From: a virus
Taxonomy: Duplodnaviria > Heunggongvirae > Uroviricota > Caudoviricetes
Virus record (IMG/VR): IMGVR_UViG_3300032116_000094
Span: 64,001 to 88,554 of that record
Strand: one strand, 5' to 3'
Length of the DNA: 24,554 bases
The notes under the pieces were generated by a model. The model had not been told where the DNA came from. It was given only the letters and a program-made list of their open reading frames with translations, and did not search any database. This document shows, in pieces, positions 1 to 24,554 of the stretch. Position numbers and translations under genes: made by a program. Position 1 is the first letter of the stretch. The number at the start of each line of letters is the position of its first letter.

Positions 1-355
1 TCATCGTCTTTTTCTTTGATTTTTTACCTCTATTTCTAAGCATTTCAAAATCTTCTCGATCTAATTTGTTATTACGATTTAAATCTATCTTATGCTGACG
101 GCCTTTTAATTCGTCATTTATATTATGTTTTTTATTTTTTGACTTTTTATTCCTTAACCTTTTAAAATCATCCCTATCCAATTTACCATTTTTATTCATG
201 TCTAGCTCCCGCTGACGGCCATGAAGCTCATCATTAATTATACTATCGTCAGTTTGCTCATTATTTAATCTTTCCTTTAAACGGGAAACTAGAGAGTTTG
301 CTTTATCTTCCAAAGCCTCATTTATAATTTGTTGTGCTATTCTATCGTATCTCAT
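1..355 (-). CDS. Hypothetical phage protein (3' end runs off the window) with two EF-hand-like repeats
   Basis: Not in the ORF track; hand-translated from the ATG at 355: MRYDRIAQQIINEALEDKANSLVSRLKERLNNEQTDDSIINDELHGRQRELDMNKNGKLDRDDFKRLRNKKSKNKKHNINDELKGRQHKIDLNRNNKLDREDFEMLRNRGKK... The frame stays open to position 1 and has TATTTATA just upstream. Confidence 0.85.
   Translation of the reverse strand, partial: MRYDRIAQQIINEALEDKANSLVSRLKERLNNEQTDDSIINDELHGRQRELDMNKNGKLDRDDFKRLRNKKSKNKKHNINDELKGRQHKIDLNRNNKLDREDFEMLRNRGKKSKKKTM
5..238 (-). repeat. Two 117-bp (39-aa) intragenic repeats, INDELxGRQxxLDxNxNxKLDRxDFxxLR
   Basis: gctgacggcc occurs at 94 and 211, 117 bp apart; each translated unit carries a D-x-N-x-N-x-K-L-D-x-x-D-F loop. 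Confidence 0.85.
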
Positions 356-363
356 CAATTAAT

Positions 364-2502: not shown

Positions 2503-3092
2503 TTTTCTAATTGGTTTTTTAAAAATTTAAAATCAAAAGCAGGGCTTAAACTTGTAACTTCCATACTAAAATTACTATACGTTATAACCCCCTCATATTT
2601 TTCGGCATAATCTATTTTTGTATTATGGCCTATAAATTTTTGGTTTATGTTTAAACTATTTGTTACTTCTCTTATGACATCTATGCAAGAATTAATTTGA
2701 TCTTGTGTGTATGGCTGCCAATAAAAGTAGTCACGCCATTTTTTCTCATAAATGTCTCCATTATAAATATCTCCAATCCAATTAACAAATCCTGTTTCTA
2801 TGGGAATTTTTTCAAGCCACCCTAAATTTTCTAGAGTTATTATAACAGAGTTTTTATTCATATCCGTTTTTTTAAAAAAATTGGTATATGCATTATCGGG
2901 TAATAACTTGTATACATCACCATTCCTTGATATAACAAAATTCGGTACCTTATCGTAATCGCCATTATTACGATAAAGTACCGAATTGAGATAATCCGTA
3001 ATATTCCTGGAGGTGTGTGTTAATATGATCTGTTTCTTAGTTTTACTCTTTTGGTAATTGTTAGAAACGTAGTTTTCAACGATATTAGCCAT
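2499..3092 (-). CDS. N-acetylmuramoyl-L-alanine amidase (Amidase_2-like) homolog with a non-canonical metal site
   Basis: Motifs QIILTHTS, NFVISRNGDVYKLL, NKNSVIITLEN, PYTQDQINS, IGHN and SPAF match the order of Amidase_2/PGRP elements. Confidence 0.75.
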   Translation of the reverse strand: MANIVENYVSNNYQKSKTKKQIILTHTSRNITDYLNSVLYRNNGDYDKVPNFVISRNGDVYKLLPDNAYTNFFKKTDMNKNSVIITLENLGWLEKIPIETGFVNWIGDIYNGDIYEKKWRDYFYWQPYTQDQINSCIDVIREVTNSLNINQKFIGHNTKIDYAEKYEGVITYSNFSMEVTSLSPAFDFKFLKNQLEK

Positions 3093-12362: not shown

Positions 12363-14570
12363 TTAAAAATCCAATCTTACTGCAAATTGCTGAGTACCTT
12401 GCCTTTGTATAGGTGACTGCAACTTTGTTATTACAACCAAATCTTTATCGACATCAAACAAACCAACTTCAGTTATAAAACTATTTGTTCCTGGAACCCA
12501 TGTTGGGTTAGTTGTGTTTGTAAATTGTGTTGAAACTAAATTACATAAAAACCTCATTTCATAAATAGTTGCCTCAATATCTGTCTCGATATTTCCATAA
12601 AAAAAATACTCCTCACCAAAATTCAAAAGATCTTCTTGCCCTGATGGTTCTGGTAAAGGTAAATAATCTGCTAAATCATATGTATCGGCATTATTATACA
12701 TATCGTAGCTAATAATGAATGTATTTGATGTCATAGCAGAAGGCGAAATTGCTCCATTGCAAGTATCACCGCTCACCCTATAAGTAAAATCAATTTTTTT
12801 CCAAGCTCCAGGCGAAGGTTGTGTTGTAGAACCAGAAACCAACTGAGCTAATACCATAAATTCATTCGCATTAAATCCACTAAAACAAGTGCAACCAGAA
12901 TTCATAAAAGGAAATTCCTCACCAAATTTAATAGCAACGTTTTGCCTGTCTTGATTACACTCATCACTAGGACCTTGCACTTTAGAATAATAATTACAAT
13001 GCAATGAGTCAGTAAATCCAAATGTTGAATTAAATCTATACGTAATATACATGTACTCTTGGTTATTACCTATAACACCAAAGTCATCAACGTCAGCATC
13101 ACACAAATTGGGGGCAACCAAAGACAAAGATGGTGCAGGTAATGTCCAGTTTCTATTTGATTTATACGATAAGGCTGCTACGATTTCGTCATCGTCAAAC
13201 ACAATAGTTTTTATATCAGGAAATACTTTTCCTACTCTATTTGGTGTACCTAAGTTATTTACATGTGTATCCCACAAATGATAGTATCTTAGCCCTGGAT
13301 TATTCATATCATTATCCACAGCAGATTTCATATATTTGACTTGGAATAATCCCTGAACCCCAACATCCGGATCAACATAAAAAGTCTCCCCCATTTGACC
13401 GGTAGATGACTTATGCCACATTAGCCAAGGTATTGAAACTTTAAAGTTTCTAGCAAAACCAGTCGTCTCTAAACTTTGCGGATCGAATGGTCTTAACGCA
13501 AATTTTTCACCATAAAAACTATCAATAGCATTGTTTGTATAATGAACTATAGCAATAGCCTTTTGCTCATTAGGATTTTGATAAACAGGTTTTTGATATG
13601 AATTAAAATAATAAGTATCTGTTGTTTCAGCAGTTAATGCAGGTGAAACCCAAAATGTTTGACCGCTTAGTTCTTGATAGCCAAAATATTCTTTACTACC
13701 AAGATATGTTCGTGAATTATATTTTGTGAAATCTTCATTCAAAGTAGAAACCACACCTGCCGGACTTACTGACCAAGGAATATTCATATTCCAAATTTTA
13801 ACATCGGTGTTACCTAAATCACAAATAGATTCAAAGTTAATAACATCAGGTGGCCAGTATCCTTCAGGCGTATTGTAATCATATAACTCAGTCATACCTG
13901 AAGGGTATATTAATACTCTAGCCGTTCCACAACAACCCGACTCAGAATAATTAGGTATATTCCTATCCAAAGTTAGTGTATTACCTGATACTGATTGTAT
14001 TTTATAAGTTAAAATTGGAAAGTTTGCAGTTAACCCACTATTACATGAACCAACCCCATCATAATAAATCGTAGCAAAATGACCGGAAAATGTTACTCCT
14101 GTTGTTGTAGAACAAAAATCGTCTGTTAATGTTATAGTATTACCACTATTTGAACAAAGGTCCAAAATGTAATTAGAACTAATAGTGTATGCTGAAGAAG
14201 TTTTTGCCGTCCATGAATTAGCCGAACCACTAAAAAAGCCTCTTGGTGCTGCTGTGTTGAATACCGAATAAATTTGTGAGTCCTCAAACGCTAAACCATA
14301 TGTATTGCCAGATGAACCAGATACATAATATGGATATTTTATATGCATTTTATTTGTCTCTGGATTCTGACTAGAATTTTGAGCATTATATGCGGCCTCT
14401 ATTATATTATTGTTTGTTTGATTATAACCTGGTATCTGATTATATAGCACTTCACTATCCCCAATTTGGAAATAACGAATATCTAGTTTACCTTTAGATA
14501 GCTTTAATCTACCGGTATCTGTAAACCTTGTATTTAATAGACCTGATGTATTTTTTATTATATATGCCAT
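12363..14570 (-). CDS. Putative virion tail/baseplate structural protein
   Basis: The C-terminus ITEVGLFDVDKDLVVITKLQSPI resembles the tail-collar fibre (DUF3751-like) ExGLFDxxxxL motif; N-terminal TDTGRxKLSxG...FQIGDSEV; S/T/N/G-rich; TATTTAT upstream. Confidence 0.65.
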   Translation of the reverse strand: MAYIIKNTSGLLNTRFTDTGRLKLSKGKLDIRYFQIGDSEVLYNQIPGYNQTNNNIIEAAYNAQNSSQNPETNKMHIKYPYYVSGSSGNTYGLAFEDSQIYSVFNTAAPRGFFSGSANSWTAKTSSAYTISSNYILDLCSNSGNTITLTDDFCSTTTGVTFSGHFATIYYDGVGSCNSGLTANFPILTYKIQSVSGNTLTLDRNIPNYSESGCCGTARVLIYPSGMTELYDYNTPEGYWPPDVINFESICDLGNTDVKIWNMNIPWSVSPAGVVSTLNEDFTKYNSRTYLGSKEYFGYQELSGQTFWVSPALTAETTDTYYFNSYQKPVYQNPNEQKAIAIVHYTNNAIDSFYGEKFALRPFDPQSLETTGFARNFKVSIPWLMWHKSSTGQMGETFYVDPDVGVQGLFQVKYMKSAVDNDMNNPGLRYYHLWDTHVNNLGTPNRVGKVFPDIKTIVFDDDEIVAALSYKSNRNWTLPAPSLSLVAPNLCDADVDDFGVIGNNQEYMYITYRFNSTFGFTDSLHCNYYSKVQGPSDECNQDRQNVAIKFGEEFPFMNSGCTCFSGFNANEFMVLAQLVSGSTTQPSPGAWKKIDFTYRVSGDTCNGAISPSAMTSNTFIISYDMYNNADTYDLADYLPLPEPSGQEDLLNFGEEYFFYGNIETDIEATIYEMRFLCNLVSTQFTNTTNPTWVPGTNSFITEVGLFDVDKDLVVITKLQSPIQRQGTQQFAVRLDF

Positions 14571-14574
14571 AACG

Positions 14575-14581
14575 ATAAATA
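14575..14581 (-). promoter_or_regulatory. Candidate late promoter core TATTTAT
   Basis: Minus strand reads gaTATTTATcgttATG in the 30-bp gap. Confidence 0.45.
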
Positions 14582-14600
14582 TCCTATTTAATGTAAATTA

Positions 14601-15977
14601 TTAGCCACTAGGTGGGTTATTAGGGTCTTGCTGCGGTATTTGTTGAGGTATTTGCGTGGTACTCTCAATTATTGTTGTTGGTTGAATTATAACACAATCA
14701 TTATCCACCGTAATATTTGACAAATAAGCATTTATCCCAACCGTACCTCTTGTATAACATAATGGATCGAATGTGAAGCCAGGATCAATATCTATTGTAT
14801 ATTCAATGTAACCAACAATATTTGATGTGTTATTACCTGTTATGGCTGTAGCAGAATATATATCATATGCAGCATATACATCATGTATCGGATTACATTG
14901 TGACGTAGATATATTGATGAATGGCCCACTATCTATTATTGACATTGTTTTTTGAATATTATTCACACTAATACTATGCCCTGTTGTTATAAAACTAACT
15001 GTTCCAGGCTCAGAATAGGTTTTAGTGTATGTTACAACATAATCAAACTCAATATTAACACCTACAGGCAATAATGATGTATCAATAGTAAAGTCGATTT
15101 TGTATTTTGTTAAGTCATTTATAGTTGTACCAACTCTATCCGGGCCAGCAGTAACAACCATCGGTAATTCATAAGTTTTTGGTTGAGATGGTGATAGTGT
15201 AACGTCACAACTAGTTGTATTACCTGATGAATCTTTAGCATAGACTGTATATGCCCCAGAAAATAACCCATTAAATATCCCAACATTAATAAAATTAACA
15301 TTATCTAAAGAATATTGCCAAGGAGGATTACCACCAGTTGCCACCGAAGTTATTGACCCATCATTTTCGTTTACACATGATGGACTATTAAAATTACACT
15401 TTATACTATATGTCTTATCTGCACTTTGACATTGACCCTCTGTTGATTTACAACTAAAAAATTGAGCGTTATTACCAAAGACAAACCATCCTGTCAATGG
15501 GGTATCTTTCGGGTCTGAGCTTCGTATAATTAAGCTAGGATAATCAGGTATTGGGTCTAGCTCCCAATATTGATTTATAAAATTCCATCTGGCATAATAG
15601 TTTATCAGATTTATTGTCGTAAAATACTCAGGTTTACCATTATAAGAGTTGCCGTTATAACAAAATGTATATCTTTTAAGCGTATTTGTTCTTGAATTTG
15701 TAATTGATAAACAAAAACAAGGATATGTTTTAATTGGATCTGAAATGTTTATTGTATTATACAAGCCACATAAATTGTTATATAATAATATTTTTTTACT
15801 TGTATCTGGGACTACAACTAAAACCCCTGTTATTAACTCCGAAAAAGTTAATCCTGTAGCAAATTCTGTTGTTAAATATTTAGTAGCCAAACTACTAGAT
15901 GATATATTATCATAATACACCGAAAAAGTTCCGTCAGGAGTTCCTGCTGTTATTGTTATATTAAATATCCTATTCAT
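14601..15977 (-). CDS. Putative virion protein with one SprB-like repeat
   Basis: True start is the ATG at 15977 (MNRIFNI), 1 nt after the upstream stop; the track's extension to 16097 is an alternative-frame reading of the PT repeat. SprB-like unit SCVNENDGSITSVATGGNPPWQYSLD...FNGLFSGAYTVYAKDSSG at about 15196-15407. Confidence 0.75.
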   Translation of the reverse strand: MNRIFNITITAGTPDGTFSVYYDNISSSSLATKYLTTEFATGLTFSELITGVLVVVPDTSKKILLYNNLCGLYNTINISDPIKTYPCFCLSITNSRTNTLKRYTFCYNGNSYNGKPEYFTTINLINYYARWNFINQYWELDPIPDYPSLIIRSSDPKDTPLTGWFVFGNNAQFFSCKSTEGQCQSADKTYSIKCNFNSPSCVNENDGSITSVATGGNPPWQYSLDNVNFINVGIFNGLFSGAYTVYAKDSSGNTTSCDVTLSPSQPKTYELPMVVTAGPDRVGTTINDLTKYKIDFTIDTSLLPVGVNIEFDYVVTYTKTYSEPGTVSFITTGHSISVNNIQKTMSIIDSGPFINISTSQCNPIHDVYAAYDIYSATAITGNNTSNIVGYIEYTIDIDPGFTFDPLCYTRGTVGINAYLSNITVDNDCVIIQPTTIIESTTQIPQQIPQQDPNNPPSG

Positions 15978-15978
15978 A

Positions 15979-16893
15979 TTATGGTGTCGGAGTTGGCGTA
16001 GGTGTTGGTGTTGATGTCGGAGTAGGACTAACTGTAGGTGTTGGTGTTGATGTTGGTGTCGGGCTAGGAGATATTGTTGGTATTGAACAAGTGCCAATAT
16101 TTAAAACAGACCCCAAAGAATTTGTTTGTATCCAATAAATACCGTTTGAATAATACCCTTCAACTACAGGCATTGTTAATTCATAATCATAATAAATGAT
16201 ATCCCCACTTTGCATTTCAAATATTTGTGAAACTGTTGACCAGTATTCTTTTGTTTCACCAGAACATGATGACAAGATAGTTGTTCCGCTACCTAATAAC
16301 AAATAGTTAAGTTCACTAACAGAGCCAGAAAAAATACAATCTAATGGTTCTATTAATTCGCAGCTAACGGTTGTTATAAAGTCATAATATTTATCAGTAA
16401 TTGTGGCATTATATGTACCTGCACTCAAGTTATATATTGTTGTACCAGTAGCTGTGGTATTATTAGGTAATGACCATACAACATAATATGGTGCTGTACC
16501 CCCAGTTATTGCTAAAGATAATATTCCACTATTAGGACTATTAACGTCAGGATTTATTGCAATACACTGAGCACCTAATGGAAATAATGTTATTGGTTCA
16601 CATTCGTTATATGAAACCCCTGGTATCGGAGGTGGAGGTAATGGCGTTGGCTCTGGCCCTGGACATGGCAAGCATCCTGAATATGAACATGTCATACCAG
16701 ATCCAGCATCAACCAAAGGTATATCATCATTTAGAATGGTAAAATATACCTTAATATCTGGCTCTTCAATAACTTTGTAACAAAAATTAATTGGCTTGCT
16801 GATTAATAAATTACCAACAGTGTATTTTGTTCCTGATTTTATTTTATATATTTGATTATCACAGCATCCTGTAACATAGCTACTTAAATTCAT
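15979..16893 (-). CDS. Putative virion protein: Cys-rich module, SprB-like repeat, C-terminal Pro-Thr tail
   Basis: Start moved to ATG 16893 (MNLSS); GCC...CLPC module, PGPEPTPLPPPP linker, SprB-like SGILSLAITGGTAPYYVVWS...NLSAGTYNATITD (about 16384-16566), and a PTPT tail. Confidence 0.75.
   Translation of the reverse strand: MNLSSYVTGCCDNQIYKIKSGTKYTVGNLLISKPINFCYKVIEEPDIKVYFTILNDDIPLVDAGSGMTCSYSGCLPCPGPEPTPLPPPPIPGVSYNECEPITLFPLGAQCIAINPDVNSPNSGILSLAITGGTAPYYVVWSLPNNTTATGTTIYNLSAGTYNATITDKYYDFITTVSCELIEPLDCIFSGSVSELNYLLLGSGTTILSSCSGETKEYWSTVSQIFEMQSGDIIYYDYELTMPVVEGYYSNGIYWIQTNSLGSVLNIGTCSIPTISPSPTPTSTPTPTVSPTPTSTPTPTPTPTP
15982..16080 (-). repeat. Pro-Thr dipeptide (6-bp period) low-complexity tail
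   Basis: ggtgt(t/c/a) units encoding PTISPSPTPTSTPTPTVSPTPTSTPTPTPTPTP up to the stop. Confidence 0.85.
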
Positions 16894-16898
16894 ATAAT

Positions 16899-17117
16899 TT
16901 ATATTACAATTAAAGATTTTATCACACAATTATTCCCATCTAATACCCGGATACCAACTTCACTTAAATTATTGTATGGTTCTGGAACTAAAAAAGAATA
17001 TGGTATGTCAGCATCATTTATTGTTGTAACGTATGCACACATGTTATATGTATTGTCACAAATATATACTGTGTATGGTTGTGTTCCGATTAAGTCTGTA
17101 ATAGTTATCTCTTTCAT
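16899..17117 (-). CDS. Small beta-rich hypothetical protein, 72 aa
   Basis: Tiles between virion-type genes; GTQPYTVY...VLDGNNC resembles a degenerate SprB/Ig-like unit. Confidence 0.75.
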   Translation of the reverse strand: MKEITITDLIGTQPYTVYICDNTYNMCAYVTTINDADIPYSFLVPEPYNNLSEVGIRVLDGNNCVIKSLIVI

Positions 17118-17123
17118 ATTATT

Positions 17124-18914
17124 TTAACTTACACATGTTCCCCAAACTATTGTCACAACAGTAGATCCTATTAATATTGTTGACCCACTAGACGGTATGG
17201 ATGTTCCATTTATTTTTACATTATATAATGTGTATCTAATCGGAGTGCCTCCTCCTCCTGAATTCCAATAACCTGTTTTAGTGTCTGGAGTTAAAGATAC
17301 TATCCCAGAATTACCAGTGTTAAATGTTACTAGACTGCTCAGATTATTATATTGAGCACCAGCAACACCTGATGTACAACCTATATCATCATAACCATCA
17401 CCAAAAACTGTTGAAACTGTTAAGTTACCTGTTATAGGTGTATTTAGTTCCGCAACAAATATTGGGAACGATGAACTAGATATATTGTCCATTGTTAAAT
17501 ATAATGTTGGGATAACGTCTGTCGGTGTTGGTGTTGGTGTTGAAGTCGGTGTATTCGTAGGAGTGCTTGTTGGTGCCGGAGCAGGTGTCGAAGTTGGGCC
17601 TGTTGCCGTTGGAGATAATGTAGGTGTTGGTGATATCGTGCTTGTTGGTGTTATTGTCGGTGTAGGTGTTGGCGTTGGAGTTATTGAACAGTTATCACAA
17701 CCTGGACCTAAAACCCATATTATGTCATTGAGGATAGCATTTGACGAATTACTTGATAATGACTCGTATGTTACACATTTTGAAACGCCATTTATTACAC
17801 AATTAAATGTAACTCCAGTCTCAATTGATAATCCTGAAAATACCAATGAGTCAACAACATAGTATGTGTCTCCTGATATACAATCAACTAGTTTTTTTGT
17901 TTTAGTATCTGTAAATGTATCATCAACTAAAGTATATGTTACATCACCACTAAAGCAAACGCTATAACCCGTTATTGGTGTTGCCGTAGGTGTCGCACTA
18001 GGTGTTGGTGTAGGTAATGTTGTAGCACTTAAAGAAATACTAGATAACGAACAATCAGATGTCGGCGTTGGTGTCGGTGTTGGTGTTGGAGTAGATGTCG
18101 GTGTAGGGCTTATTGTTGCTGTTGGTGTTGGTGTTATTATCTCACAATTAAAATACGCATTAAAATCAAAATCGTCGCATATTGCAGGTGTTGGCGTTGG
18201 TGTTACAACACAAACTCCTTCTGTTAATTCAGATAATGAAATGTCTGGGCAATTTTCGTAACAAGGAACTTTACCAAATAAAAAACAATCTCCACCCAAA
18301 CTATCAGATAAACACCATTTATACCCTGTATTATATAAATACCCTATTTGATCTGTACCCCCAGTATAATACGCATATCCATTATAGTTACCAACTTTAT
18401 TATAGGTCCCATCATTATCAAAATAATTATTAGTATCTAAGCAATATTGGTTAATCGGACATTCAGGCCCTATATACGTAGGTGTCGGTGTTGGTGATGG
18501 TGTAGGTGTAGGCGTTTGTGTTGGTGTAGGTGTAGGGCATGTTATGCAGCCTTCACAACTAACTTGCTGGACAAATATACCTGTTGTCCCATCATATACT
18601 GTTCCTCCACCTAAATTATCTATATAGGTGCAACCAGTATATCCTGAAACAGTAACGTGATAAAAGTTAGAAACTAATTGTGCCGGAATACCACTAACTG
18701 TAAATGTTATGCCACTATCACAACAATCCGTAAAATTGTATTGATAACTAGCACAGGCTGGACTACAACTCATGTCAGTTAATGTTATTCCAGAATATGA
18801 GTAATCGTCATTTAAACAAATTGGTGTACCAATAGTAGATCCGCTTTGGAAATAACCGCAACAATCTGTATATTGCCAGGAGCTAGAATTAGTTACACCA
18901 GATAGACAAGCCAT
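17124..18914 (-). CDS. Putative virion fibre/decoration protein with Cys-rich modules joined by mucin-like Pro-Thr linkers
   Basis: 596 aa; DCC/DC...CxxC modules; several PT tracts; TATTTATA upstream. Confidence 0.75.
   Translation of the reverse strand: MACLSGVTNSSSWQYTDCCGYFQSGSTIGTPICLNDDYSYSGITLTDMSCSPACASYQYNFTDCCDSGITFTVSGIPAQLVSNFYHVTVSGYTGCTYIDNLGGGTVYDGTTGIFVQQVSCEGCITCPTPTPTQTPTPTPSPTPTPTYIGPECPINQYCLDTNNYFDNDGTYNKVGNYNGYAYYTGGTDQIGYLYNTGYKWCLSDSLGGDCFLFGKVPCYENCPDISLSELTEGVCVVTPTPTPAICDDFDFNAYFNCEIITPTPTATISPTPTSTPTPTPTPTPTSDCSLSSISLSATTLPTPTPSATPTATPITGYSVCFSGDVTYTLVDDTFTDTKTKKLVDCISGDTYYVVDSLVFSGLSIETGVTFNCVINGVSKCVTYESLSSNSSNAILNDIIWVLGPGCDNCSITPTPTPTPTITPTSTISPTPTLSPTATGPTSTPAPAPTSTPTNTPTSTPTPTPTDVIPTLYLTMDNISSSSFPIFVAELNTPITGNLTVSTVFGDGYDDIGCTSGVAGAQYNNLSSLVTFNTGNSGIVSLTPDTKTGYWNSGGGGTPIRYTLYNVKINGTSIPSSGSTILIGSTVVTIVWGTCVS
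17521..18536 (-). repeat. Multiple Pro-Thr tracts within the 596-aa gene (about 17521-17685, 17975-18135, 18185-18205, 18477-18536)
   Basis: Runs of ggtgtt/ggtgtc/ggtgta; tract boundaries are approximate. Confidence 0.8.
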
Positions 18915-19030: not shown

Positions 19031-19972
19031 ATGAAAAAAGTATTCCTAGATTTATCCGAAGCAAAAGGCTTAGGTGATACGCTATCAGCAACCCCTGTTA
19101 TTAGGAAATTAAAAGAATCATATGGTTCCAAAATATATGTCATAACGAATTATCCTGAGTTATTCCATAATAACAGAAATGTTGAAAAAGCTTATTATGT
19201 AAATGCAATTAATATAGAAAATGTAAAATCAACACAGATATATCATTCATCATTCAATAATGTTGGTAAGAAAAATGAGTTTGGTGTTGAATTTAAAAGT
19301 AATGTATGTGATATAAGACAATATCATGCTATGACGCTTGGCTTTCAATTATCTGAAGATGATTTGTATACAGAATATGAACCCGATGAATATATACCAA
19401 TTGATGGACTACCAGAAAAATTCGTTTTAATCCATCCCGCAGAAAATTGGCCCTCAAGAACCTGGGATAAAGACAAATGGGCCGATCTTGTTAATTTATT
19501 ATGCGGAAATAATATAAATGTTGTTATTACAGGTAAAAACACCGAGGAATATGGATTTTTTCACATTACAAAAAAAATATTTAGCATAAAACAAGACTTG
19601 GTTTTAGATTTATCAAACAAAAGTAATATATCGCAAACCTGGCACTTAATTGATAAATCTTCTTGTTTTGTAACAATGGATTCAGGACTGCTGCATTTAG
19701 CAGGAACAACAGATGCCGAAATAATTCAACTCGGAAGCTCCATAAATAACGAATTTAGAGCCCCATATAGATATATGTCACAAGATTACAAATACCATTA
19801 TATCTCAGGTCCTTGTGGAATATTTTGTGCTTCAGACATGAAATATGGTGTTAGAGAATGGGGTACAATACATGGTGTTCCCCCATTAATTGGCTGCTTA
19901 GAAAATAAACCTGAATTTGAATGCCACCCATCGGTAATTGATGTTTACGAAACAATTATGAAAATCATATGA
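19031..19972 (+). CDS. Glycosyltransferase family 9 (heptosyltransferase-like, GT-B) with a C-terminal four-Cys cluster
   Basis: GLGDTLSATPVIRKLK, VLIHP...SRTWDKDKW and FVTMDSGLLHLA are GT9 motifs; C-x3-C-x22-C-x8-C at 19814-19924. Confidence 0.85.
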   Translation: MKKVFLDLSEAKGLGDTLSATPVIRKLKESYGSKIYVITNYPELFHNNRNVEKAYYVNAINIENVKSTQIYHSSFNNVGKKNEFGVEFKSNVCDIRQYHAMTLGFQLSEDDLYTEYEPDEYIPIDGLPEKFVLIHPAENWPSRTWDKDKWADLVNLLCGNNINVVITGKNTEEYGFFHITKKIFSIKQDLVLDLSNKSNISQTWHLIDKSSCFVTMDSGLLHLAGTTDAEIIQLGSSINNEFRAPYRYMSQDYKYHYISGPCGIFCASDMKYGVREWGTIHGVPPLIGCLENKPEFECHPSVIDVYETIMKII

Positions 19973-22900
19973 ATAATAAACTTAAATTTGATAAAGCGTA
20001 TATTTTGTATGCAACCGAAAATTATTTTCCAGTAATAGAATGTACTATAACTAGTATTAGGAAGTTCTCTAAATTACCGATAATAGTTTATTCTATAAAT
20101 AAAAAATTTGAAACATCTAATAATGACGTATATTGTGAAGTAATGTATAATATACATTTAAGGCATAAAAATAATGATGATTTATACATTAAAGGATTGG
20201 ATGAATCTAATTTTTATATTAAAAGAGAAAACCCTCACATATATTCAATATTAATCCAAAAACCATTTATAACAATACATGCCTTAGAAAATTATGCTAA
20301 AACAGTATTCTTTATTGATGCCGACTCAGTTATATTCAACAATATTGACATTTTTTTTGATTTATATCCAGAAAATGAAAATATTCCTTATTTTACCAAA
20401 GGCATTTATGATTTTTTAGCATATAACGAAATTGGTCATGAAGACGGTTTAGAAAATACCGTTGAACACAAATTATGCGAATTATTGAATATTGATCAAT
20501 CATTTAGGCTAAATACAAGTTATAGGCAATCTGGTTATTATATATCAGGCCAGAAGAGTATACCATTTTTAAATGAATGGTATATTACTTGCGGAATGGA
20601 TATAATATTTAGGAACCATGCAATTTATGCCCCTTATAACGAAGAAACCGTATTAAACTGCTTATTATGGAAATATAAAATAGATAAGGGTTTGCCTTTA
20701 ATATATGTTAACGGATCGTTAGATAGAATTGATATTATCAATGATAACAAAAATTATTTAGGTATTGAAAACGAAATACAAGAATGGTTTAAACTACCTC
20801 CCCAGAAAAATTCTGTGTATTTTATACATGGTGAAAAAAGACCAAATATTATTATGGATATGATAAATAAAATTGATGAAATAAAAAACCGAGATAGCGG
20901 AAAAAAAACAAATATATTGTATTTAGCCCCTCATTTATCAACAGGTGGTATGCCAGCTTTTCTACTAAAAAGAATTGAGGCCATAAAAAAATACTATAAT
21001 GACGAATTTAATATTTTTGTTGTTGAATATACAAATTATGGCGATGCATTTTCAGTGCAAAAAGATATGATAAAAACTATGATCGATTCTGATAAGTTTT
21101 ATTCCTTAGGATATTTAGGTGAACCTATTGATAATAAATACAAGTTATTGGATATTATTAAATATAATAATATAGACGTAGTACATATTGATGAACCAAT
21201 TGAAGGCTTTGACTCATTTAATCCTGTGCCAAGAGATTTAATTAACCTACTATATTCTGAGGACAGATCTTGGAATATTGTCGAAACATGCCATAATGTT
21301 GTATTTAATCCTAAACAATCAAAAGAATTTCATCCTGACGCATATGCTTTATGCTCAAAATATCATAAAAATGTAACTTTTGCTGATGAAAAAGAAATTT
21401 TAGAGTTAATTGAATATCCGATTGAAAATTTCAAAAAAACAAAAGCTGAAAAATTAAAAGCGCAATTAAGTTTAAATTTAGATCCTGAAGTAAGACACGT
21501 ATTAAATGTCGGTATTTGGACACCAGGTAAAAATCAAAAAGAATTCGTAGAAATTGCAAAATTGTTTGAAAACAATAACAATTTACATTTTCATGCTATT
21601 GGTTCCTTAGCACCTAATTTTGAAGACTATTGGGGCCCAATTGTTGAAAATTTACCTAAGAACATAACTGTATGGGGTGAAAGAAATGACGTTCATGCAT
21701 TTATGGCAGCTTCTGATGTTTTAATATTTAACTCAACATTTGAGTGTAACCCAATAACTCTAAAAGAAGCTATATCTTTTGGATTGAAAATATTAGCAAG
21801 AGATCTAAATGTTTATTTAGACACATACTCACAATATATTATACCAATAGATGATAATATTTTAGACACAAAAAATAAATTAGAAAAAATTGTAAATTCA
21901 AAATTATTTTCATATACAGCAACTAATGAACAGAATTCTTTTGCGGAAAAACATGTTAATTTATATCTAAATTTAAAAAACAAAGAATCCAAATATAAAT
22001 TAGATATAGCTCAATCATTTGTTGGTCAACCTTATTTTGAAATAAAAGGAAAGGATAATAACACATATCACGTAGAATTTATTGATGAAAATAACACACT
22101 TGTTTATTCTGAAAATATCACCACAAATACTTGGATAAGACTTAACCGAAAATATTATACAAAATGGAAAACTAATGTATCTATTGATGATAAAATTATA
22201 TATTCAAAAACATTATCATTAAAAAATGAAAGAGTTTATATCGCATTCGATAGTAACTCGTTAGGCGATACAATTGCTTGGATGCCATATTGCTTAGAAT
22301 TTAAGAAAAAACACAATTGTTATTTGATTGTATCAACATTTTGGAATAAATTATTTGTTGATGTTTACCCTGAAATTGAGTTCGTAACTCCTGGTGATAT
22401 TGTTTATGACTTATACGCGATGTATAACATAGGATATTATTATGATAATAATAGTGCCCCAGAAAACCCTCAAATAATACCCTTGCAAAAGGTGGCAACA
22501 AACATTTTAGGATTAAATTACCATGAAATTTCTCCAAGGATTAAATTTAATCCGGGGAAAAGACCTATTGAATCTAGATACGTTACCATAGCAACAGATT
22601 CTACAGCCCAACTAAAATATTGGAATTATCCTAGAGGTTGGGAAATACTTTGTGAGTATCTTCAAAATTGCGGATATAAAGTTATCTCTGTCTCAAAAGA
22701 AGCGTCTAAAATTAATGGGGTTATAAACTTATCCGATACATCAATAGAAAATACTATGAATGTGATTCATCATAGTGAGTTTTTAATCGGTTTATCTAGC
22801 GGTCTATCATGGCTTGCTTGGGCATTAGATAAACATGTTGTTATGATCGCTAATTTCACGGATGAGGACCAAGAATTTAAATCAAATTGTACTAGAATTA

Positions 22901-23079
22901 TTAATAAATCAGTATGTAACAGTTGTTGGAATAACCCATTATTTAAATTCGACAAATCAGATTGGAACTGGTGTCCAGAACATAAAAATACTCCTAGGCA
23001 ATTTGAATGCCATAAATCTATAACGCCAGATATGGTGTTTCAAAGAATAAAAAAAGACATATTTAAGTATGAAAATTGA
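19969..23079 (+). CDS. Three-domain glycosyltransferase: GT-A (DxD), GT4 (GT-B), and TibC/Aah-like autotransporter strand-loop-strand O-heptosyltransferase domain
   Basis: N-terminal FFIDADS...EETVLN...FIHG (about 19969-20890); middle APHLSTGG, NVGIWTPGKNQ, SDVLIFNSTFECNPITLKEAISFG (about 20905-21980); C-terminal SLGDTIAWMPY, STAQLKYWN, IGLSSGLSWLAWA and CNSCW-x14-CPEHKNTPRQFEC (about 21990-23079). Confidence 0.88.
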   Translation: MNNKLKFDKAYILYATENYFPVIECTITSIRKFSKLPIIVYSINKKFETSNNDVYCEVMYNIHLRHKNNDDLYIKGLDESNFYIKRENPHIYSILIQKPFITIHALENYAKTVFFIDADSVIFNNIDIFFDLYPENENIPYFTKGIYDFLAYNEIGHEDGLENTVEHKLCELLNIDQSFRLNTSYRQSGYYISGQKSIPFLNEWYITCGMDIIFRNHAIYAPYNEETVLNCLLWKYKIDKGLPLIYVNGSLDRIDIINDNKNYLGIENEIQEWFKLPPQKNSVYFIHGEKRPNIIMDMINKIDEIKNRDSGKKTNILYLAPHLSTGGMPAFLLKRIEAIKKYYNDEFNIFVVEYTNYGDAFSVQKDMIKTMIDSDKFYSLGYLGEPIDNKYKLLDIIKYNNIDVVHIDEPIEGFDSFNPVPRDLINLLYSEDRSWNIVETCHNVVFNPKQSKEFHPDAYALCSKYHKNVTFADEKEILELIEYPIENFKKTKAEKLKAQLSLNLDPEVRHVLNVGIWTPGKNQKEFVEIAKLFENNNNLHFHAIGSLAPNFEDYWGPIVENLPKNITVWGERNDVHAFMAASDVLIFNSTFECNPITLKEAISFGLKILARDLNVYLDTYSQYIIPIDDNILDTKNKLEKIVNSKLFSYTATNEQNSFAEKHVNLYLNLKNKESKYKLDIAQSFVGQPYFEIKGKDNNTYHVEFIDENNTLVYSENITTNTWIRLNRKYYTKWKTNVSIDDKIIYSKTLSLKNERVYIAFDSNSLGDTIAWMPYCLEFKKKHNCYLIVSTFWNKLFVDVYPEIEFVTPGDIVYDLYAMYNIGYYYDNNSAPENPQIIPLQKVATNILGLNYHEISPRIKFNPGKRPIESRYVTIATDSTAQLKYWNYPRGWEILCEYLQNCGYKVISVSKEASKINGVINLSDTSIENTMNVIHHSEFLIGLSSGLSWLAWALDKHVVMIANFTDEDQEFKSNCTRIINKSVCNSCWNNPLFKFDKSDWNWCPEHKNTPRQFECHKSITPDMVFQRIKKDIFKYEN

Positions 23080-23434
23080 GGTATCAATTGGAGAAATTGT
23101 AGATAAGTTATCTATTTTACAAATAAAAAAAGAAAATATATCCGATGTTAATAAATTGTATAACGTAAATAATGAATTTAGTTATTTACATGATATTGTA
23201 TTCAATGAGCTTAAAATCAGTGATGACGATTATTATAATCTTTTAATTATTAATAAAAGCTTGTGGGATATTGAAGATCATATACGAAAAAAAGAAATCG
23301 ATAAATCATTCGATGATGAGTTTATCGATTTAGCTAGAAAAGTTTATATTACAAACGACAAAAGATCCGTTATAAAAAAAGAAATAAATATAAAATATAA
23401 CTCATTATTTGTTGAAGAAAAATCTTACAAATAA
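23069..23434 (+). CDS. DUF6165-like protein
   Basis: VSIGEIVDKLSILQIK...INKSLWDIED..R...FIDLARKVYITNDKRSVIKKEIN...VEEKSY matches the recalled family pattern, which is commonly found beside glycosyltransferases. Confidence 0.75.
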   Translation: MKIEVSIGEIVDKLSILQIKKENISDVNKLYNVNNEFSYLHDIVFNELKISDDDYYNLLIINKSLWDIEDHIRKKEIDKSFDDEFIDLARKVYITNDKRSVIKKEINIKYNSLFVEEKSYK

Positions 23435-23471
23435 AAAAAAATGTGGCAGAATTAACTGCCACATTTTTTTT
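23434..23471. terminator. Bidirectional intrinsic terminator between convergent genes
   Basis: A8-tgtggcag-aattaa-ctgccaca-T8, a perfect inverted repeat with a poly-T run on both strands. Confidence 0.85.
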
Positions 23472-24552
23472 ATGATAATATAGTGAAAACTAATTGTGGA
23501 TGGAAATATAATGTATATTCACTTAAAGCTACGCCAATTATCTGTACTACGTCATCTTTGGCTGATGGCGGTGTTGTAGTTATATTTCCTGCTGTAGTAC
23601 TTAAATACCAAATAGTATTAGGACCACCATATGCTCCAACACCTGAAGACACTTTTGTTACAAACCCGTGCATCAAAAAGTTTCCTGCTGCACCACTACT
23701 TAAGCTTGTTTCAAGACATAAAGCTATTGCAGGAGCTGTAGAGCCCGTATCTGCGTCAGCTTTTTTAAATTGACCAAGTGTTGCGTCAATATATACAACA
23801 TCACCAAACGCTAATGATTCACCAGCAGTAAATCTGGTTATCATACCCCAACCCGCAGAGCCTGTTGTTCCTGTTGAAATTGGGTATATTGAGGTTATAC
23901 CTGTAAGTGCTGGTGATGTTCCCGAAGTGCCAGATGTTCCACTCGAACCTGATGATCCGCTTGAGCCAGAAGACCCTGATGAACCACTTGAACCTGAAGA
24001 GCCAGAAGATCCTGATGTACCAGAAGATCCCGACCTACCGGATGTACCTGATGTTCCACTCGAACCTGATGATCCGCTTGAGCCAGAAGACCCTGATGAA
24101 CCACTTGAACCTGAAGAGCCAGAAGATCCTGATGTACCAGAAGATCCTGACCTACCGGATGTGCCTGATGTACCACTCGAACCTGATGATCCGCTTGAGC
24201 CAGAAGACCCTGATGAACCACTTGAACCTGAAGAGCCAGAAGATCCTGATGTACCAGAAGATCCTGACCTACCGGATGTGCCAGAAGTACCAGAAGAGCC
24301 TGACGAACCGCTCGAACCAGATGAGCCAGAAGAGCCTGATGACCCGCTTGAACCACTCGAACCAGATGAGCCAGATGTACCAGAAGAGCCTGATGACCCG
24401 CTTGAACCACTCGAACCAGATGAGCCAGATGTGCCAGAAGAGCCTGATGACCCGCTTGAACCGCTCGAACCAGATGAGCCAGATGTACCAGAAGAGCCAG
24501 ATGATCCTGACGAACCGCTCGAACCAGATGAGCCAGATGTACCAGAAGAGCC
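23470..24552 (-). CDS. Collagen-like Gly-Ser/Thr-Ser fibre protein with a C-terminal DUF2190/capsid-cement-like domain (5' end beyond the window)
   Basis: The frame of track ORF 23470..23844 stays open to the window end: (GSS/GTS)n-PALTGITSIYPISTGTTGSAGWG-MITRFTAGESLAFGDVVY...KADA...YLSTTAGNITTTPPS...VVQIIGVA. Confidence 0.85.
   Translation of the reverse strand, partial: GSSGTSGSSGSSGSSGSSGSSGTSGSSGSSGSSGSSGSSGTSGSSGSSGSSGSSGSSGTSGSSGSSGSSGSSGSSGSSGSSGSSGSSGTSGTSGRSGSSGTSGSSGSSGSSGSSGSSGSSGSSGSSGTSGTSGRSGSSGTSGSSGSSGSSGSSGSSGSSGSSGSSGTSGTSGRSGSSGTSGSSGSSGSSGSSGSSGSSGSSGSSGTSGTSGTSPALTGITSIYPISTGTTGSAGWGMITRFTAGESLAFGDVVYIDATLGQFKKADADTGSTAPAIALCLETSLSSGAAGNFLMHGFVTKVSSGVGAYGGPNTIWYLSTTAGNITTTPPSAKDDVVQIIGVALSEYTLYFHPQLVFTILS
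23914..24552 (-). repeat. 71 consecutive 9-bp Gly-X-Y units with higher-order 117-bp x3 (23932-24282) and 54-bp x3 (24328-24489) duplications
   Basis: Walked codon by codon: Gly at every third residue, X/Y positions all Ser or Thr except three Arg, one per 117-bp unit. Confidence 0.92.
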
Positions 24553-24554
24553 TG

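What the first reader, a model, noticed from the sequence alone, without database searches (positions are those of the whole stretch)
19969..23079. 1036-aa triple glycosyltransferase ending in a complete TibC/Aah-like domain with exact iron-site cysteine spacing
Seen: the C-terminal third has the beta-rich pre-domain (WIRLNRKYYTKWKTNV...TLSLKNERVYIAF), the LGD catalytic-base motif, IGLSSGLSWLAWA, and C-x2-C-x15-C-x11-C (22915-23010). Established: this is the tetracysteine ferric-ion motif spacing of the bacterial autotransporter heptosyltransferase TibC, so this is not a generic LPS GT9. Fusion to a GT-A (DAD) domain and a GT4 domain suggests a single-chain glycan assembly line (inference).
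Basis: partly seen in the sequence, partly recalled or inferred. Interest (0 to 1): 0.8.

Follow-up and report, generated by a model that had tools for sequence, protein, structure and literature searches.

The report
Phage fibre-glycosylating three-domain sugar transferase
A giant lake phage of Bacteroidota encodes one 1036-residue enzyme made of three sugar-transferase domains, the last a true relative of the E. coli adhesin-glycosylating enzyme TibC, and it most likely sugar-coats the phage's own proline-free, serine-packed collagen-like fibre encoded next door, which no experiment has yet tested.

Summary
ORF 19969-23079 (+) encodes 1036 aa with three domains: a GT-A fold with a DxD motif, a GT4 domain with EX7E, and a TibC/Aah-type domain. 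The last scores 307 bits on TIGR04414 (cut-off 200). Its model fits TibC 4RAP at Z 36.5, barrel included. The catalytic Asp and the C-x2-C-x15-C-x11-C iron-finger cysteines are conserved.

Three things differ from TibC. The adenine-contacting Arg286 is an invariant Thr in this subclade. The oligomerisation "thumb" is about 10 residues shorter. No autotransporter gene lies nearby.

The window is the end of an 88.5-kb fragment of a roughly 290-kb Bacteroidota phage. Tail-to-tail with the enzyme operon lies a gene for at least 71 Gly-Ser/Thr-Ser collagen triplets without Pro or acidic residues. This pairing recurs:
- 37 of 48 related loci with enough flank have such a fibre.
- 15 of 46 viral records picked only by the repeat carry a TibC-type gene, against 0 of 42 controls.
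- None of 74 cellular TibC-family loci has it.

I read this as a virion-fibre O-glycosylation module (confidence about 0.65). The sugar is unknown, and no ADP-heptose pathway was found in four near-complete relatives. Earlier reports of this scan reached the same reading on other phage DNA. I found no paper describing it.

The parts
19031..19972 (+). P0002, a 313-aa barrel-less GT9 glycosyltransferase with a GLGD motif near its N-terminus. Its stop overlaps the start of the large gene (ATGA).
   Evidence: Pfam PF01075 scores 55 bits against a cut-off of 22. All LPS heptosyltransferase equivalogs fall below their cut-offs. It shows weak similarity to the C-lobe and the FECH end of the TibC-like domain. 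Homologs occur in 19 of 82 related loci.
19969..20904 (+). Domain 1 of P0001 (aa 1-312): GT-A fold with a DxD motif (D117, D119) and a conserved His287, resembling retaining enzymes of GT6, GT8 and GT24.
   Evidence: It has no Pfam hit and no PDB sequence hit. The AF2 model has pLDDT 94. VIA-align gives Z 15-16 over about 215 residues to BoGT6a 4ayj, WbbM 6u4b, LgtC 1g9r and UGGT. D117, D119, E226, N230 and H287 are invariant in 51 sequences. Only 147 cluster representatives match among 1.8 billion proteins.
20905..21990 (+). Domain 2 of P0001 (aa 313-674): GT4-type GT-B glycosyltransferase with an EX7E motif (E592, E600).
   Evidence: Pfam PF00534 scores 35.1 bits (cut-off 26.4) and PF13692 scores 33.1 bits. 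G326, G327, K521, E592 and E600 are conserved in at least 97% of 121 homologs.
21991..23079 (+). Domain 3 of P0001 (aa 675-1036): TibC/Aah-type (BAHT) protein O-glycosyltransferase with the flattened beta-barrel, the GT9 catalytic core, catalytic D767 and the four-Cys finger.
   Evidence: TIGR04414 scores 307.2 bits against a cut-off of 200. Match to 4RAP: E 1.8e-55 by sequence; Z 36.5 and rmsd 2.8 A over 356 residues by structure. D767, T879, K883, S943, W948 and the four Cys are invariant in 121 homologs. T929 replaces TibC R286.
22915..23010 (+). Iron-finger motif C983-x2-C986-x15-C1002-x11-C1014.
   Evidence: It aligns residue for residue with TibC Cys339/342/358/370 and is invariant in 121 phage-type and 74 cellular homologs. 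Metal content cannot be tested here.
23069..23434 (+). P0003, a 121-aa DUF6165 protein overlapping the end of the large gene. It is a candidate accessory component of the module; its function is unknown.
   Evidence: Pfam PF19662 scores 32.8 bits against a cut-off of 27. A profile of it matches 43 of 82 related loci, 2 of the 6 phage-type cellular loci, 0 of 74 classical BAHT loci and 0 of 117 control loci. It is fused in frame to the C-terminus of the transferase in L069 and L072. 36 alignment columns are invariant.
23434..23471 (.). A 16-bp hairpin flanked by A-runs and T-runs, looking like a bidirectional terminator between the convergent operon and the fibre gene.
   Evidence: Consensus scan. 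This is a match to a pattern only; its function has not been shown.
23470..24552 (-). 3' part of a collagen-like fibre gene (P0318), cut by the contig end. It shows 71 uninterrupted Gly-X-Y triplets (52 GSS, 16 GTS, 3 GRS; no Pro, Lys, Asp or Glu), then a C-terminal domain of about 147 aa. It is the proposed acceptor.
   Evidence: Translation and composition. Pfam Collagen PF01391 scores 114.5 bits, E 1.8e-33. Its C-terminal domain is 34% identical to that of a repeat-bearing ORF in L050. Equivalent fibres in relatives match PHROG tail-fibre families.
12363..18914 (-). Four fibre-like structural genes, divergent from the operon, rich in (Pro-Thr)n linkers; one carries an SprB repeat. They are possible additional acceptors.
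   Evidence: Translations. SprB repeat PF13573 scores 30.4 bits. Homologs were found only in L001, L003, L061 and L073, so this linkage is far narrower than the collagen-like one.

Best explanation
The gene encodes a single-chain, three-active-site glycosyltransferase of a large Bacteroidota phage. Together with the upstream GT9 (P0002) and the downstream DUF6165 protein (P0003), it forms a late-gene module that O-glycosylates the phage's own collagen-like fibre in the host cytoplasm.

Inferred steps:
1. The C-terminal TibC-type domain uses D767 as the base to put the first sugar on Ser (and perhaps Thr) hydroxyls of the (Gly-Ser/Thr-Ser)n repeats. This parallels TibC hyperglycosylating Ser in the repetitive TibA rod.
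2. The GT4 and GT-A domains, both retaining-type by family or fold resemblance, extend that sugar into a short oligosaccharide.
3. Relatives add methyl-, pyruvyl- and further glycosyl-transferase domains to vary the glycan.

The repeats contain no proline and no Lys-Glu/Asp pairs. Dense O-glycosylation is therefore the only known remaining way to stabilise such a triple helix, and it would also shield the fibre.

Shown here: domain identities, conserved catalytic residues, and the genomic pairing with the fibres. Inferred: the acceptor, the order of action, and the role in helix stability. Open: the donor sugar, which could be heptose or something else.
For: Domain identities:
- TIGR04414 scores 307 bits against a cut-off of 200.
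- TibC 4RAP matches at E 1.8e-55 by sequence and at Z 36.5 by structure.
- GT4 is supported by the Pfam hit and the conserved EX7E motif.
- The GT-A fold matches at Z 15-16, with an invariant DxD.

Architecture: the domain order is kept in 121 of 121 homologs. Many carry extra FkbM, GT25, GT32 or pyruvyl-transferase domains.

The fibre:
- It lies 391 nt downstream of the P0001 stop (36 nt after the DUF6165 gene that closes the operon), convergent, with at least 71 GSS/GTS triplets.
- It matches Pfam Collagen at E 1.8e-33.

Forward association:
- 55 of 82 loci with relatives of the enzyme have S/T-rich GXY runs.
- Among loci with at least 8 kb downstream, 37 of 48 have a run downstream and only 5 have one upstream.
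- All 52 downstream runs lie on the opposite strand, at a median distance of 2.6 kb.
- Fibres reach 919 triplets and 3117 aa and match PHROG tail-fibre families.

Reverse association: 15 of 46 IMG/VR records chosen only by a (G-S/T-S)x6 DNA pattern carry TIGR04414 (14 above the cut-off), against 0 of 42 chosen by a G-P-X pattern. Fisher p is 2e-5.

Specificity within the family:
- S/T collagen-like runs lie next to 3 of 6 phage-type genes in GTDB genomes and next to 0 of 74 classical BAHT genes.
- The viral clade separates from the cellular BAHTs with support 1.0.

The pairing also occurs in other gene orders, so it is not only inherited synteny:
- Microcystis phage Mel-JY01 has the fibre upstream on the same strand.
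- The huge phage LR756501 has it too.
- So does L329.

Precedent from the literature:
- TibC modifies Ser, not Thr, of a repetitive rod (PMC4358343).
- (Gly-Pro-Thr)10 becomes triple-helical only when its Thr residues are galactosylated, and the collagen-like protein BclA is O-glycosylated (PMC11923368).
Against: - No glycan has been observed on any such fibre; the link rests on gene neighbourhood alone.
- Many of the loci are related phages, so the counts are not independent events.
- About two thirds of the fragmentary records that carry the repeat show no TibC-type gene. One record rated 100% complete (G051) also lacks it.
- The TibC Arg286 that reads adenine is Thr in all 121 close homologs.
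- Four near-complete related phage genomes encode no GmhA and no above-threshold RfaE domains. The textbook donor, ADP-heptose, is therefore unsupported.
- The thumb that TibC needs for its active dodecamer is shortened, and its tip is not conserved.
- Pro-Thr-rich fibre genes on the other side of the operon are alternative acceptors.
Confidence: 0.65

Rival explanations
1. The module glycosylates other virion proteins, not the collagen-like fibre. Candidates are the Pro-Thr-linker fibre proteins encoded divergently upstream (12363-18914), or capsid or tail proteins, as in mycobacteriophages.
For: The operon is flanked on its 5' side by four fibre-like genes with long (PT)n linkers. Their homologs occupy the same position in L001 and L003. 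Phage enzymes that glycosylate capsid and tail proteins are known (Freeman 2023, PMC10527164, cited from the reference list seen).
Against: Homologs of the PT-rich genes accompany the enzyme in only 2-4 of 82 loci, against 55 of 82 for collagen-like runs. TibC modifies Ser and not Thr, whereas PT linkers are Thr-based and the collagen repeat is 58% Ser.
Confidence: 0.15
2. The enzyme modifies host molecules during infection, such as a host surface adhesin, an S-layer or gliding protein, or LPS. The purpose would be to block superinfection or alter the cell surface; the fibre neighbour would be coincidental synteny.
For: Phage glycosyltransferases that modify O-antigen are well known (general statements in PMC7029224 and PMC10202952). 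GT9, GT4 and GT8-like enzymes are typical LPS-core enzymes. Classical BAHTs act on secreted adhesins.
Against: The TibC-type domain, with barrel and finger, is a protein-directed enzyme rather than an LPS enzyme. No membrane segment or signal peptide is evident in the sequence (by inspection only). The association with collagen-like fibres holds in different gene orders and in very different phages, and it is absent from 74 cellular BAHT loci.
Confidence: 0.12
3. The domains make a free or lipid-linked oligosaccharide, or modify phage DNA, with no protein acceptor.
For: Multi-domain transferases such as WbbM, which is a structural match of domain 1, build polysaccharides. Phage DNA glycosylation by GT-B enzymes is established knowledge.
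Against: The closest characterised relative of domain 3 is a protein Ser O-glycosyltransferase, and its catalytic and substrate-side modules are conserved. No polysaccharide export, flippase or hydroxymethyl-base synthesis genes were seen among the window's ORFs.
Confidence: 0.05

Closest known systems
TibC-TibA and Aah-AIDA-I of E. coli (bacterial autotransporter heptosyltransferases, BAHT; TIGR04414; PDB 4RAP/4RB4; Yao et al. 2014, PMC4358343)
   Same: The fold matches over 356 residues, including the N-terminal barrel (Z 36.5). About 32% of residues are identical. The catalytic Asp, the phosphate-binding Thr and Lys, the sugar-binding Trp and the four iron-finger Cys with identical spacing are all present. 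Ser occupies the stereoselectivity position, as in Aah. The presumed logic is also the same: many Ser residues of a long repetitive rod are modified in the cytoplasm.
   Different: The enzyme is viral, not cellular, and sits in a separate clade (support 1.0). It is fused behind two other transferase domains. The adenine-contacting Arg286 is Thr. The thumb hairpin needed for the dodecamer is about 10 residues shorter and its tip is not conserved. The neighbouring gene is a collagen-like fibre, not an autotransporter. A DUF6165 partner is present that classical BAHT loci lack. The donor sugar is unknown.
BclA of the Bacillus anthracis exosporium, and galactosyl-threonine collagens (Riftia cuticle collagen; the (Gly-Pro-Thr)10 peptide), as summarised in PMC11923368
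   Same: These are Gly-X-Y repeats with hydroxy amino acids that carry O-linked sugars, and glycosylation can substitute for hydroxyproline in stabilising the triple helix.
   Different: Those repeats contain proline and are glycosylated on Thr by unrelated enzymes. Here the repeats are Pro-free and mostly Ser, and the candidate enzyme is TibC-type. Glycosylation is not demonstrated here.
Mycobacteriophage virion glycosylation (Freeman et al. 2023, PMC10527164)
   Same: Phage-encoded glycosyltransferases placed among structural genes modify the phage's own virion proteins.
   Different: The enzyme families, the acceptors (capsid and tail-tube C-terminal extensions) and the hosts (Actinobacteria) all differ. 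No TibC-type domain and no collagen-like acceptor are involved.
Retaining GT-A enzymes of families GT6, GT8 and GT24 (BoGT6a, LgtC, the WbbM C-terminal domain, UGGT)
   Same: Domain 1 shares the GT-A fold (Z 15-16), a DxD motif and a C-terminal His.
   Different: Identity is only 10-15%. No Pfam or PDB sequence match was found. The domain belongs to a small family of 147 cluster representatives, found almost only inside multi-domain proteins.

Membership tests
BAHT / TIGR04414 (TibC, Aah) | Profile score above the curated equivalog cut-off | tested here: met
   307.2 bits against a cut-off of 200, at aa 698-1029, covering profile positions 27-373 of 374.
BAHT / TIGR04414 (TibC, Aah) | N-terminal flattened beta-barrel packed on the GT9 N-lobe | tested here: met
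   Model strands at residues 25-94 align with TibC from residue 19. Z is 36.5 against 19.8 for barrel-less GT9 structures. Caveat: AlphaFold may have learnt from 4RAP.
BAHT / TIGR04414 (TibC, Aah) | Catalytic base Asp110 and donor-binding Thr226, Lys230 and Trp305 | tested here: met
   D767, T879, K883 and W948 align with them and are invariant in 121 homologs.
BAHT / TIGR04414 (TibC, Aah) | Arg286 contacting adenine N1 of ADP-heptose | tested here: not met
   Thr929 occupies this position in all 121 close homologs. Arg is present in all 74 cellular BAHTs and in a few basal viral members.
BAHT / TIGR04414 (TibC, Aah) | Four-Cys 1Fe-0S iron finger (C-x2-C-x15-C-x11-C) | tested here: met
   The sequence motif and spacing are identical and invariant. 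Iron binding itself cannot be tested with these tools.
BAHT / TIGR04414 (TibC, Aah) | Beta-hairpin thumb with a hydrophobic tip (Phe265/Val266) that builds the active dodecamer | tested here: inconclusive
   The hairpin region is about 10 residues shorter. The tip positions vary: V/C/A/Q at one and E/T/I/S at the other. The oligomeric state cannot be derived here.
BAHT / TIGR04414 (TibC, Aah) | Cognate autotransporter adhesin as neighbour and substrate | tested here: not met
   No autotransporter was found among the window's ORFs. The neighbour is a collagen-like fibre.
BAHT / TIGR04414 (TibC, Aah) | Transfer of heptose from ADP-heptose to Ser | not testable with these tools
   No ADP-heptose pathway was found in the 88-kb fragment or in four near-complete relatives. 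Host supply is unknown.
GT4 (Pfam PF00534 Glycos_transf_1) | Profile score above the gathering cut-off, plus the EX7E motif | tested here: met
   35.1 bits against 26.4. E592 and E600 are conserved in at least 97% of 121 homologs.
Retaining GT-A clan (GT6/GT8/GT24) | GT-A fold with DxD and a C-terminal metal-binding His | tested here: met
   Z 15-16 over about 215 residues. D117, D119 and H287 are invariant.
Retaining GT-A clan (GT6/GT8/GT24) | Sequence membership of a named family (for example Pfam GT8) | tested here: not met
   No Pfam or NCBIfam hit on aa 1-312 at E up to 0.1, and no PDB sequence hit at E up to 10.
Collagen triple-helix repeat (PF01391), for the proposed acceptor | Uninterrupted Gly-X-Y repeats scoring above the cut-off | tested here: met
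   71 triplets. 114.5 bits against a cut-off of 27.2. Triple-helix formation itself cannot be tested.

The most novel reading that the evidence does not exclude
These phages make a new kind of collagen: proline-free, uncharged (Gly-Ser/Thr-Ser)n rods, up to about 900 triplets long, that can fold and persist only because a dedicated viral TibC-type enzyme line coats nearly every triplet with an oligosaccharide. The Thr-for-Arg subclade would also have switched to a donor other than ADP-heptose. That would be a glycosylation-dependent alternative to prolyl hydroxylation, spread through thousands of aquatic phages.
Probability: 0.3. Interest if true: 0.85.

Novelty: new variant of a known kind. 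Interest (0 to 1): 0.7.

Why it matters
TibC-type enzymes are known only as virulence-associated glycosylases of proteobacterial adhesins. It is wired to a different kind of repetitive rod, a Pro-free Ser/Thr collagen-like tail fibre.

If the link is real, three things follow. First, virion O-glycosylation is widespread in aquatic phages. Second, it would show how such odd collagens can be stable. Third, the variable accessory domains would diversify fibre glycans, which bears on host recognition and on particle survival.

The module also offers compact, soluble, multi-step glycosylation enzymes with a simple repeat acceptor. The idea can be tested directly by co-expression and mass spectrometry.

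Tried and rejected
1. Joint fold of the TibC-like domain with DUF6165 (complex prediction). It gave no answer, so I draw nothing from it in either direction.
2. Profile of DUF6165 against PDB sequences. Only a marginal coiled-coil hit to the DC-SIGNR neck appeared, which is not informative, so the function of DUF6165 stays unknown.
3. PHROGs on P0001, P0002 and P0003: no family matched.
4. megablast of the whole window against deposited phages: no match.
5. Literature searches for TibC or heptosyltransferase with phage or collagen-like, for DUF6165 and for Mel-JY01. No paper describes this module. The paper on related 'bS21' Bacteroidetes phages does not mention glycosyl or collagen.
6. Search for an ADP-heptose pathway (gmhA, PfkB/RfaE domain I, RfaE domain II) in the fragment and in near-complete relatives. 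Only sub-threshold generic kinase and nucleotidyltransferase hits appeared, so a phage-encoded heptose supply is not supported.
7. I first took loss of Arg286 as the signature of the whole viral clade. The tree showed that basal viral members keep Arg, and that at least two of them (L153, L084) lie within about 6 kb of S/T collagen-like repeats (L186 was itself fetched by the repeat pattern). The fibre association therefore belongs to the clade, not to the Arg loss.
8. Terminal repeats of the contig: none. The contig simply breaks inside the collagen repeat.

Full report
**Observation.** The window is 30% GC. ORF 19969-23079 (+) is open and encodes 1036 aa.

**Context.** The window is the last 24.5 kb of an 88,554-bp IMG/VR virus record that CheckV rates 30% complete, which implies a phage of roughly 290 kb.
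- Genes in the window include a sigma-70 factor, an SbcD-like phosphoesterase, a primase, a RuvC-like resolvase and an amidase.
- One fibre-like ORF carries an SprB repeat, which points to a Bacteroidota host.
- Earlier notes of this scan place the genome among freshwater Bacteroidota 'bS21' jumbo phages. That paper mentions neither glycosyltransferases nor collagen.

**Domain 3 (aa 675-1036) is a true TibC/Aah relative.**
- NCBIfam TIGR04414 scores 307.2 bits against a curated cut-off of 200. LPS heptosyltransferase models score about 20 bits.
- phmmer finds only TibC in the PDB, at E 1.8e-55.
- An AlphaFold model of aa 655-1036 (pLDDT 86) aligns to TibC 4RAP with Z 36.5 and rmsd 2.8 A over 356 residues, model 21-382 to TibC 19-392. 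The N-terminal barrel is therefore present. Barrel-less GT9 structures reach only Z 18-20, starting at model residue 93-100.

I mapped the functional residues of Yao et al. 2014 (PMC4358343) onto the alignment:

| TibC residue | Role | Here |
|---|---|---|
| Asp110 | catalytic base | D767 |
| Thr226, Lys230 | beta-phosphate binding | T879, K883 |
| Trp305 | heptose O4 | W948 |
| Pro300 | stereoselectivity | S943, as in Aah |
| Cys339, 342, 358, 370 | iron finger | C983, C986, C1002, C1014, same x2/x15/x11 spacing |

All of these are invariant in 121 homologs.

Two features differ. Arg286, which reads adenine N1 and whose mutation cripples TibC, is Thr929 in all 121 homologs. The beta-hairpin thumb that builds the active dodecamer is about 10 residues shorter, with a non-conserved tip.

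**Domains 1 and 2.**
- aa 313-674 match Pfam Glycos_transf_1 (35.1 bits against 26.4). G326, G327, K521 and the EX7E pair E592/E600 are conserved.
- aa 1-312 have no Pfam, NCBIfam or PDB sequence match and only 147 cluster representatives among 1.8 billion proteins.
- They nevertheless fold with pLDDT 94 into a GT-A domain. Its best structural matches, at Z 15-16 over about 215 residues, are retaining enzymes of GT6, GT8 and GT24.
- D117, D119 (the DxD motif), E226, N230 and H287 are invariant.

All three active sites therefore look intact.

**Relatives.** A search for proteins of similar length scored 2694 at E <= 0.001 among the 8000 candidates it could score; the 120 best cover 69-100% of the query (about 100 of them 98-100%), at 48-62% identity apart from three close relatives at 82-95%. 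Many carry added FkbM or other methyltransferase, GT25, GT32 or pyruvyl-transferase domains. All 120 listed keep the order GT-A, GT4, TibC-like. A further 4811 shorter proteins, many of them stand-alone TibC-like forms of about 395 aa, also exist. JGI already labels many of these 'autotransporter strand-loop-strand O-heptosyltransferase' automatically. Among deposited phages only four records match, and only on domain 3: three huge uncultured phages and Microcystis phage Mel-JY01.

**The neighbour.** After the large gene comes a DUF6165 gene that overlaps its end, then a hairpin that looks like a bidirectional terminator (23434-23471). Then, on the opposite strand, comes the 3' part of a gene that runs off the contig. 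It encodes 71 uninterrupted triplets (52 GSS, 16 GTS, 3 GRS) with no Pro, Lys, Asp or Glu, followed by a C-terminal domain of about 147 aa. Pfam Collagen scores 114.5 bits on it.

**Forward test of the pairing.**
- In 82 loci that encode relatives of the enzyme, 55 have S/T-rich Gly-X-Y runs of at least 8 triplets.
- Among the 48 loci with at least 8 kb downstream, 37 have such a run downstream and 5 have one upstream.
- All 52 downstream runs are on the opposite strand, at a median of 2.6 kb from the enzyme gene.
- Fibres reach 919 triplets and 3117 aa. One example matches Collagen at E 1.7e-69 and also matches PHROG tail-fibre families.
- Several loci without a run end, like this contig, a few kb after the enzyme gene.

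**Reverse test.** I fetched IMG/VR records solely by a DNA pattern for (G-S/T-S)x6.
- Of the 46 records that could be searched whole, 15 contain TIGR04414 at E <= 1e-10, and 14 of them exceed the cut-off. This is despite a median completeness near 20%. Among records at least 90% complete, 3 of 4 contain it.
- Of 42 records fetched by a G-P-X periodic pattern, none does. Fisher p is 2e-5.

**Specificity within the family.** In one-genome-per-species GTDB contigs, 74 classical BAHT genes (32-39% identical; Burkholderia, Bradyrhizobium, Acetobacter and others) have no S/T collagen-like run within 10 kb. Three of the six phage-type genes (41-59% identical, on MAG contigs) do, and the other three sit on contigs of 2-8 kb.

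A FastTree phylogeny separates the viral clade from the cellular BAHTs with support 1.0. Basal viral members keep Arg at the Arg286 position. At least two of them, L153 and L084, lie within about 6 kb of S/T collagen-like repeats, and L186 was itself fetched by the repeat pattern. The fibre association therefore belongs to the viral clade. Arg loss is a later event in the subclade that holds this protein.

**Not only inherited synteny.** In Mel-JY01 the collagen-like gene lies upstream on the same strand. It is read correctly only on the + strand; the deposited annotation calls PEVP-type ORFs on the other strand. In L329 the fibre lies downstream on the same strand. In LR756501 it lies 5-6 kb upstream.

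The caveat remains that many loci are related phages. The counts are not independent events, and no sugar has been seen on any fibre.

**DUF6165.**
- A profile of P0003 matches 43 of 82 related loci and 2 of the 6 phage-type cellular loci.
- It matches none of the 74 classical BAHT loci and none of the 117 control loci.
- In L069 and L072 it is fused in frame to the C-terminus of the transferase.
- It has 36 invariant columns, many of them charged.

It is thus a specific component of the module, with unknown role.

**Donor.** The 88-kb fragment has no gmhA, PfkB or cytidylyltransferase-like genes. Four near-complete relatives have no gmhA and only sub-threshold kinase and nucleotidyltransferase matches. 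Together with the loss of Arg286, this leaves the sugar open. Heptose from a host ADP-heptose pool is possible but unsupported.

**Mechanism proposed.** The TibC-type domain primes Ser hydroxyls of the repeats. TibC is Ser-specific on a repetitive rod, and the repeat here is 58% Ser. The GT4 and GT-A domains, and perhaps the separate GT9, then extend the glycan. Accessory domains in relatives diversify it.

The repeats lack every known triple-helix stabiliser. (Gly-Pro-Thr)10 becomes triple-helical only when galactosylated (PMC11923368). Glycosylation may therefore be needed for the fibre to fold; this last step is inference.

**Comparison and novelty.** The closest known systems are:
- TibC-TibA and Aah-AIDA-I, which share the enzyme family but differ in acceptor, context and fusion;
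- BclA and the galactosyl-Thr collagens, which share the kind of acceptor but use unrelated enzymes;
- mycobacteriophage virion glycosylation, which shares the concept but differs in enzymes and acceptors.

I found no paper on this module. Earlier reports of this scan describe the same pairing in other phage genomes. I had reached the reading, before seeing them. I rate it a new variant of a known kind.

Noticed in passing
G000:C1:190-13125 (+), outside the window: About 30 tandem paralogous genes of 101-119 aa, 35-78% identical to each other, fill the first 13 kb of the contig. Earlier notes of this scan discuss their repeat-spacer-like tails.
   Followed up: no
G000:C1:35743-45127 (-), outside the window: A run of about ten divergent paralogs of roughly 300 aa (23-33% identity), head to tail on the minus strand.
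   Followed up: no
L083 (PP395634.1, Microcystis phage Mel-JY01) 1-3052: The deposited annotation calls two minus-strand ORFs made of PEVP-type repeats, plus a separate + strand ORF at 2519-3052. One + strand frame, open from the start of the record to 3052, instead reads as a collagen-like G-S/T-S protein of at least 1016 aa with non-repeat ends. The annotation there is probably on the wrong strand.
   Followed up: partly
window 23069-23434 (+); L069 and L072: DUF6165 is a highly conserved protein of about 122 aa with many invariant charged residues (E9, D12, K13, E69, R73, D97, R99, K103, K104). It is specific to the viral TibC clade and is sometimes fused to the enzyme. It looks more like an enzyme or a ligand-binding module than a passive linker.
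   Followed up: partly
window 2-358 (-), continuing to genome 63318-64358: A Lys/Arg-rich protein carries two copies of a 13-residue motif that resembles EF-hand calcium-binding loops (D-x-N-x-N-G/N-K-L-D-R-D/E-D-F), judged by eye from the translation.
   Followed up: no
window 12363-18914 (-): Four large fibre-like proteins have long (Pro-Thr)n linkers and Cys-rich modules, and one has an SprB repeat typical of Bacteroidota gliding adhesins. They have homologs only in the closest relatives, L001 and L003.
   Followed up: partly
L001 14629-17644 (299-kb ENA contig): In a 51%-identical relative the enzyme operon is followed by genes for a sulfotransferase, an APS kinase and a small cytidylyltransferase-like protein. 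This hints that some of these phages sulfate their glycans or fibres.
   Followed up: no
window 24552-24554, the contig end: The assembly breaks inside the collagen-like repeat. Several related contigs also end a few kb after the enzyme gene, so these fibres are probably under-represented in assemblies.
   Followed up: partly
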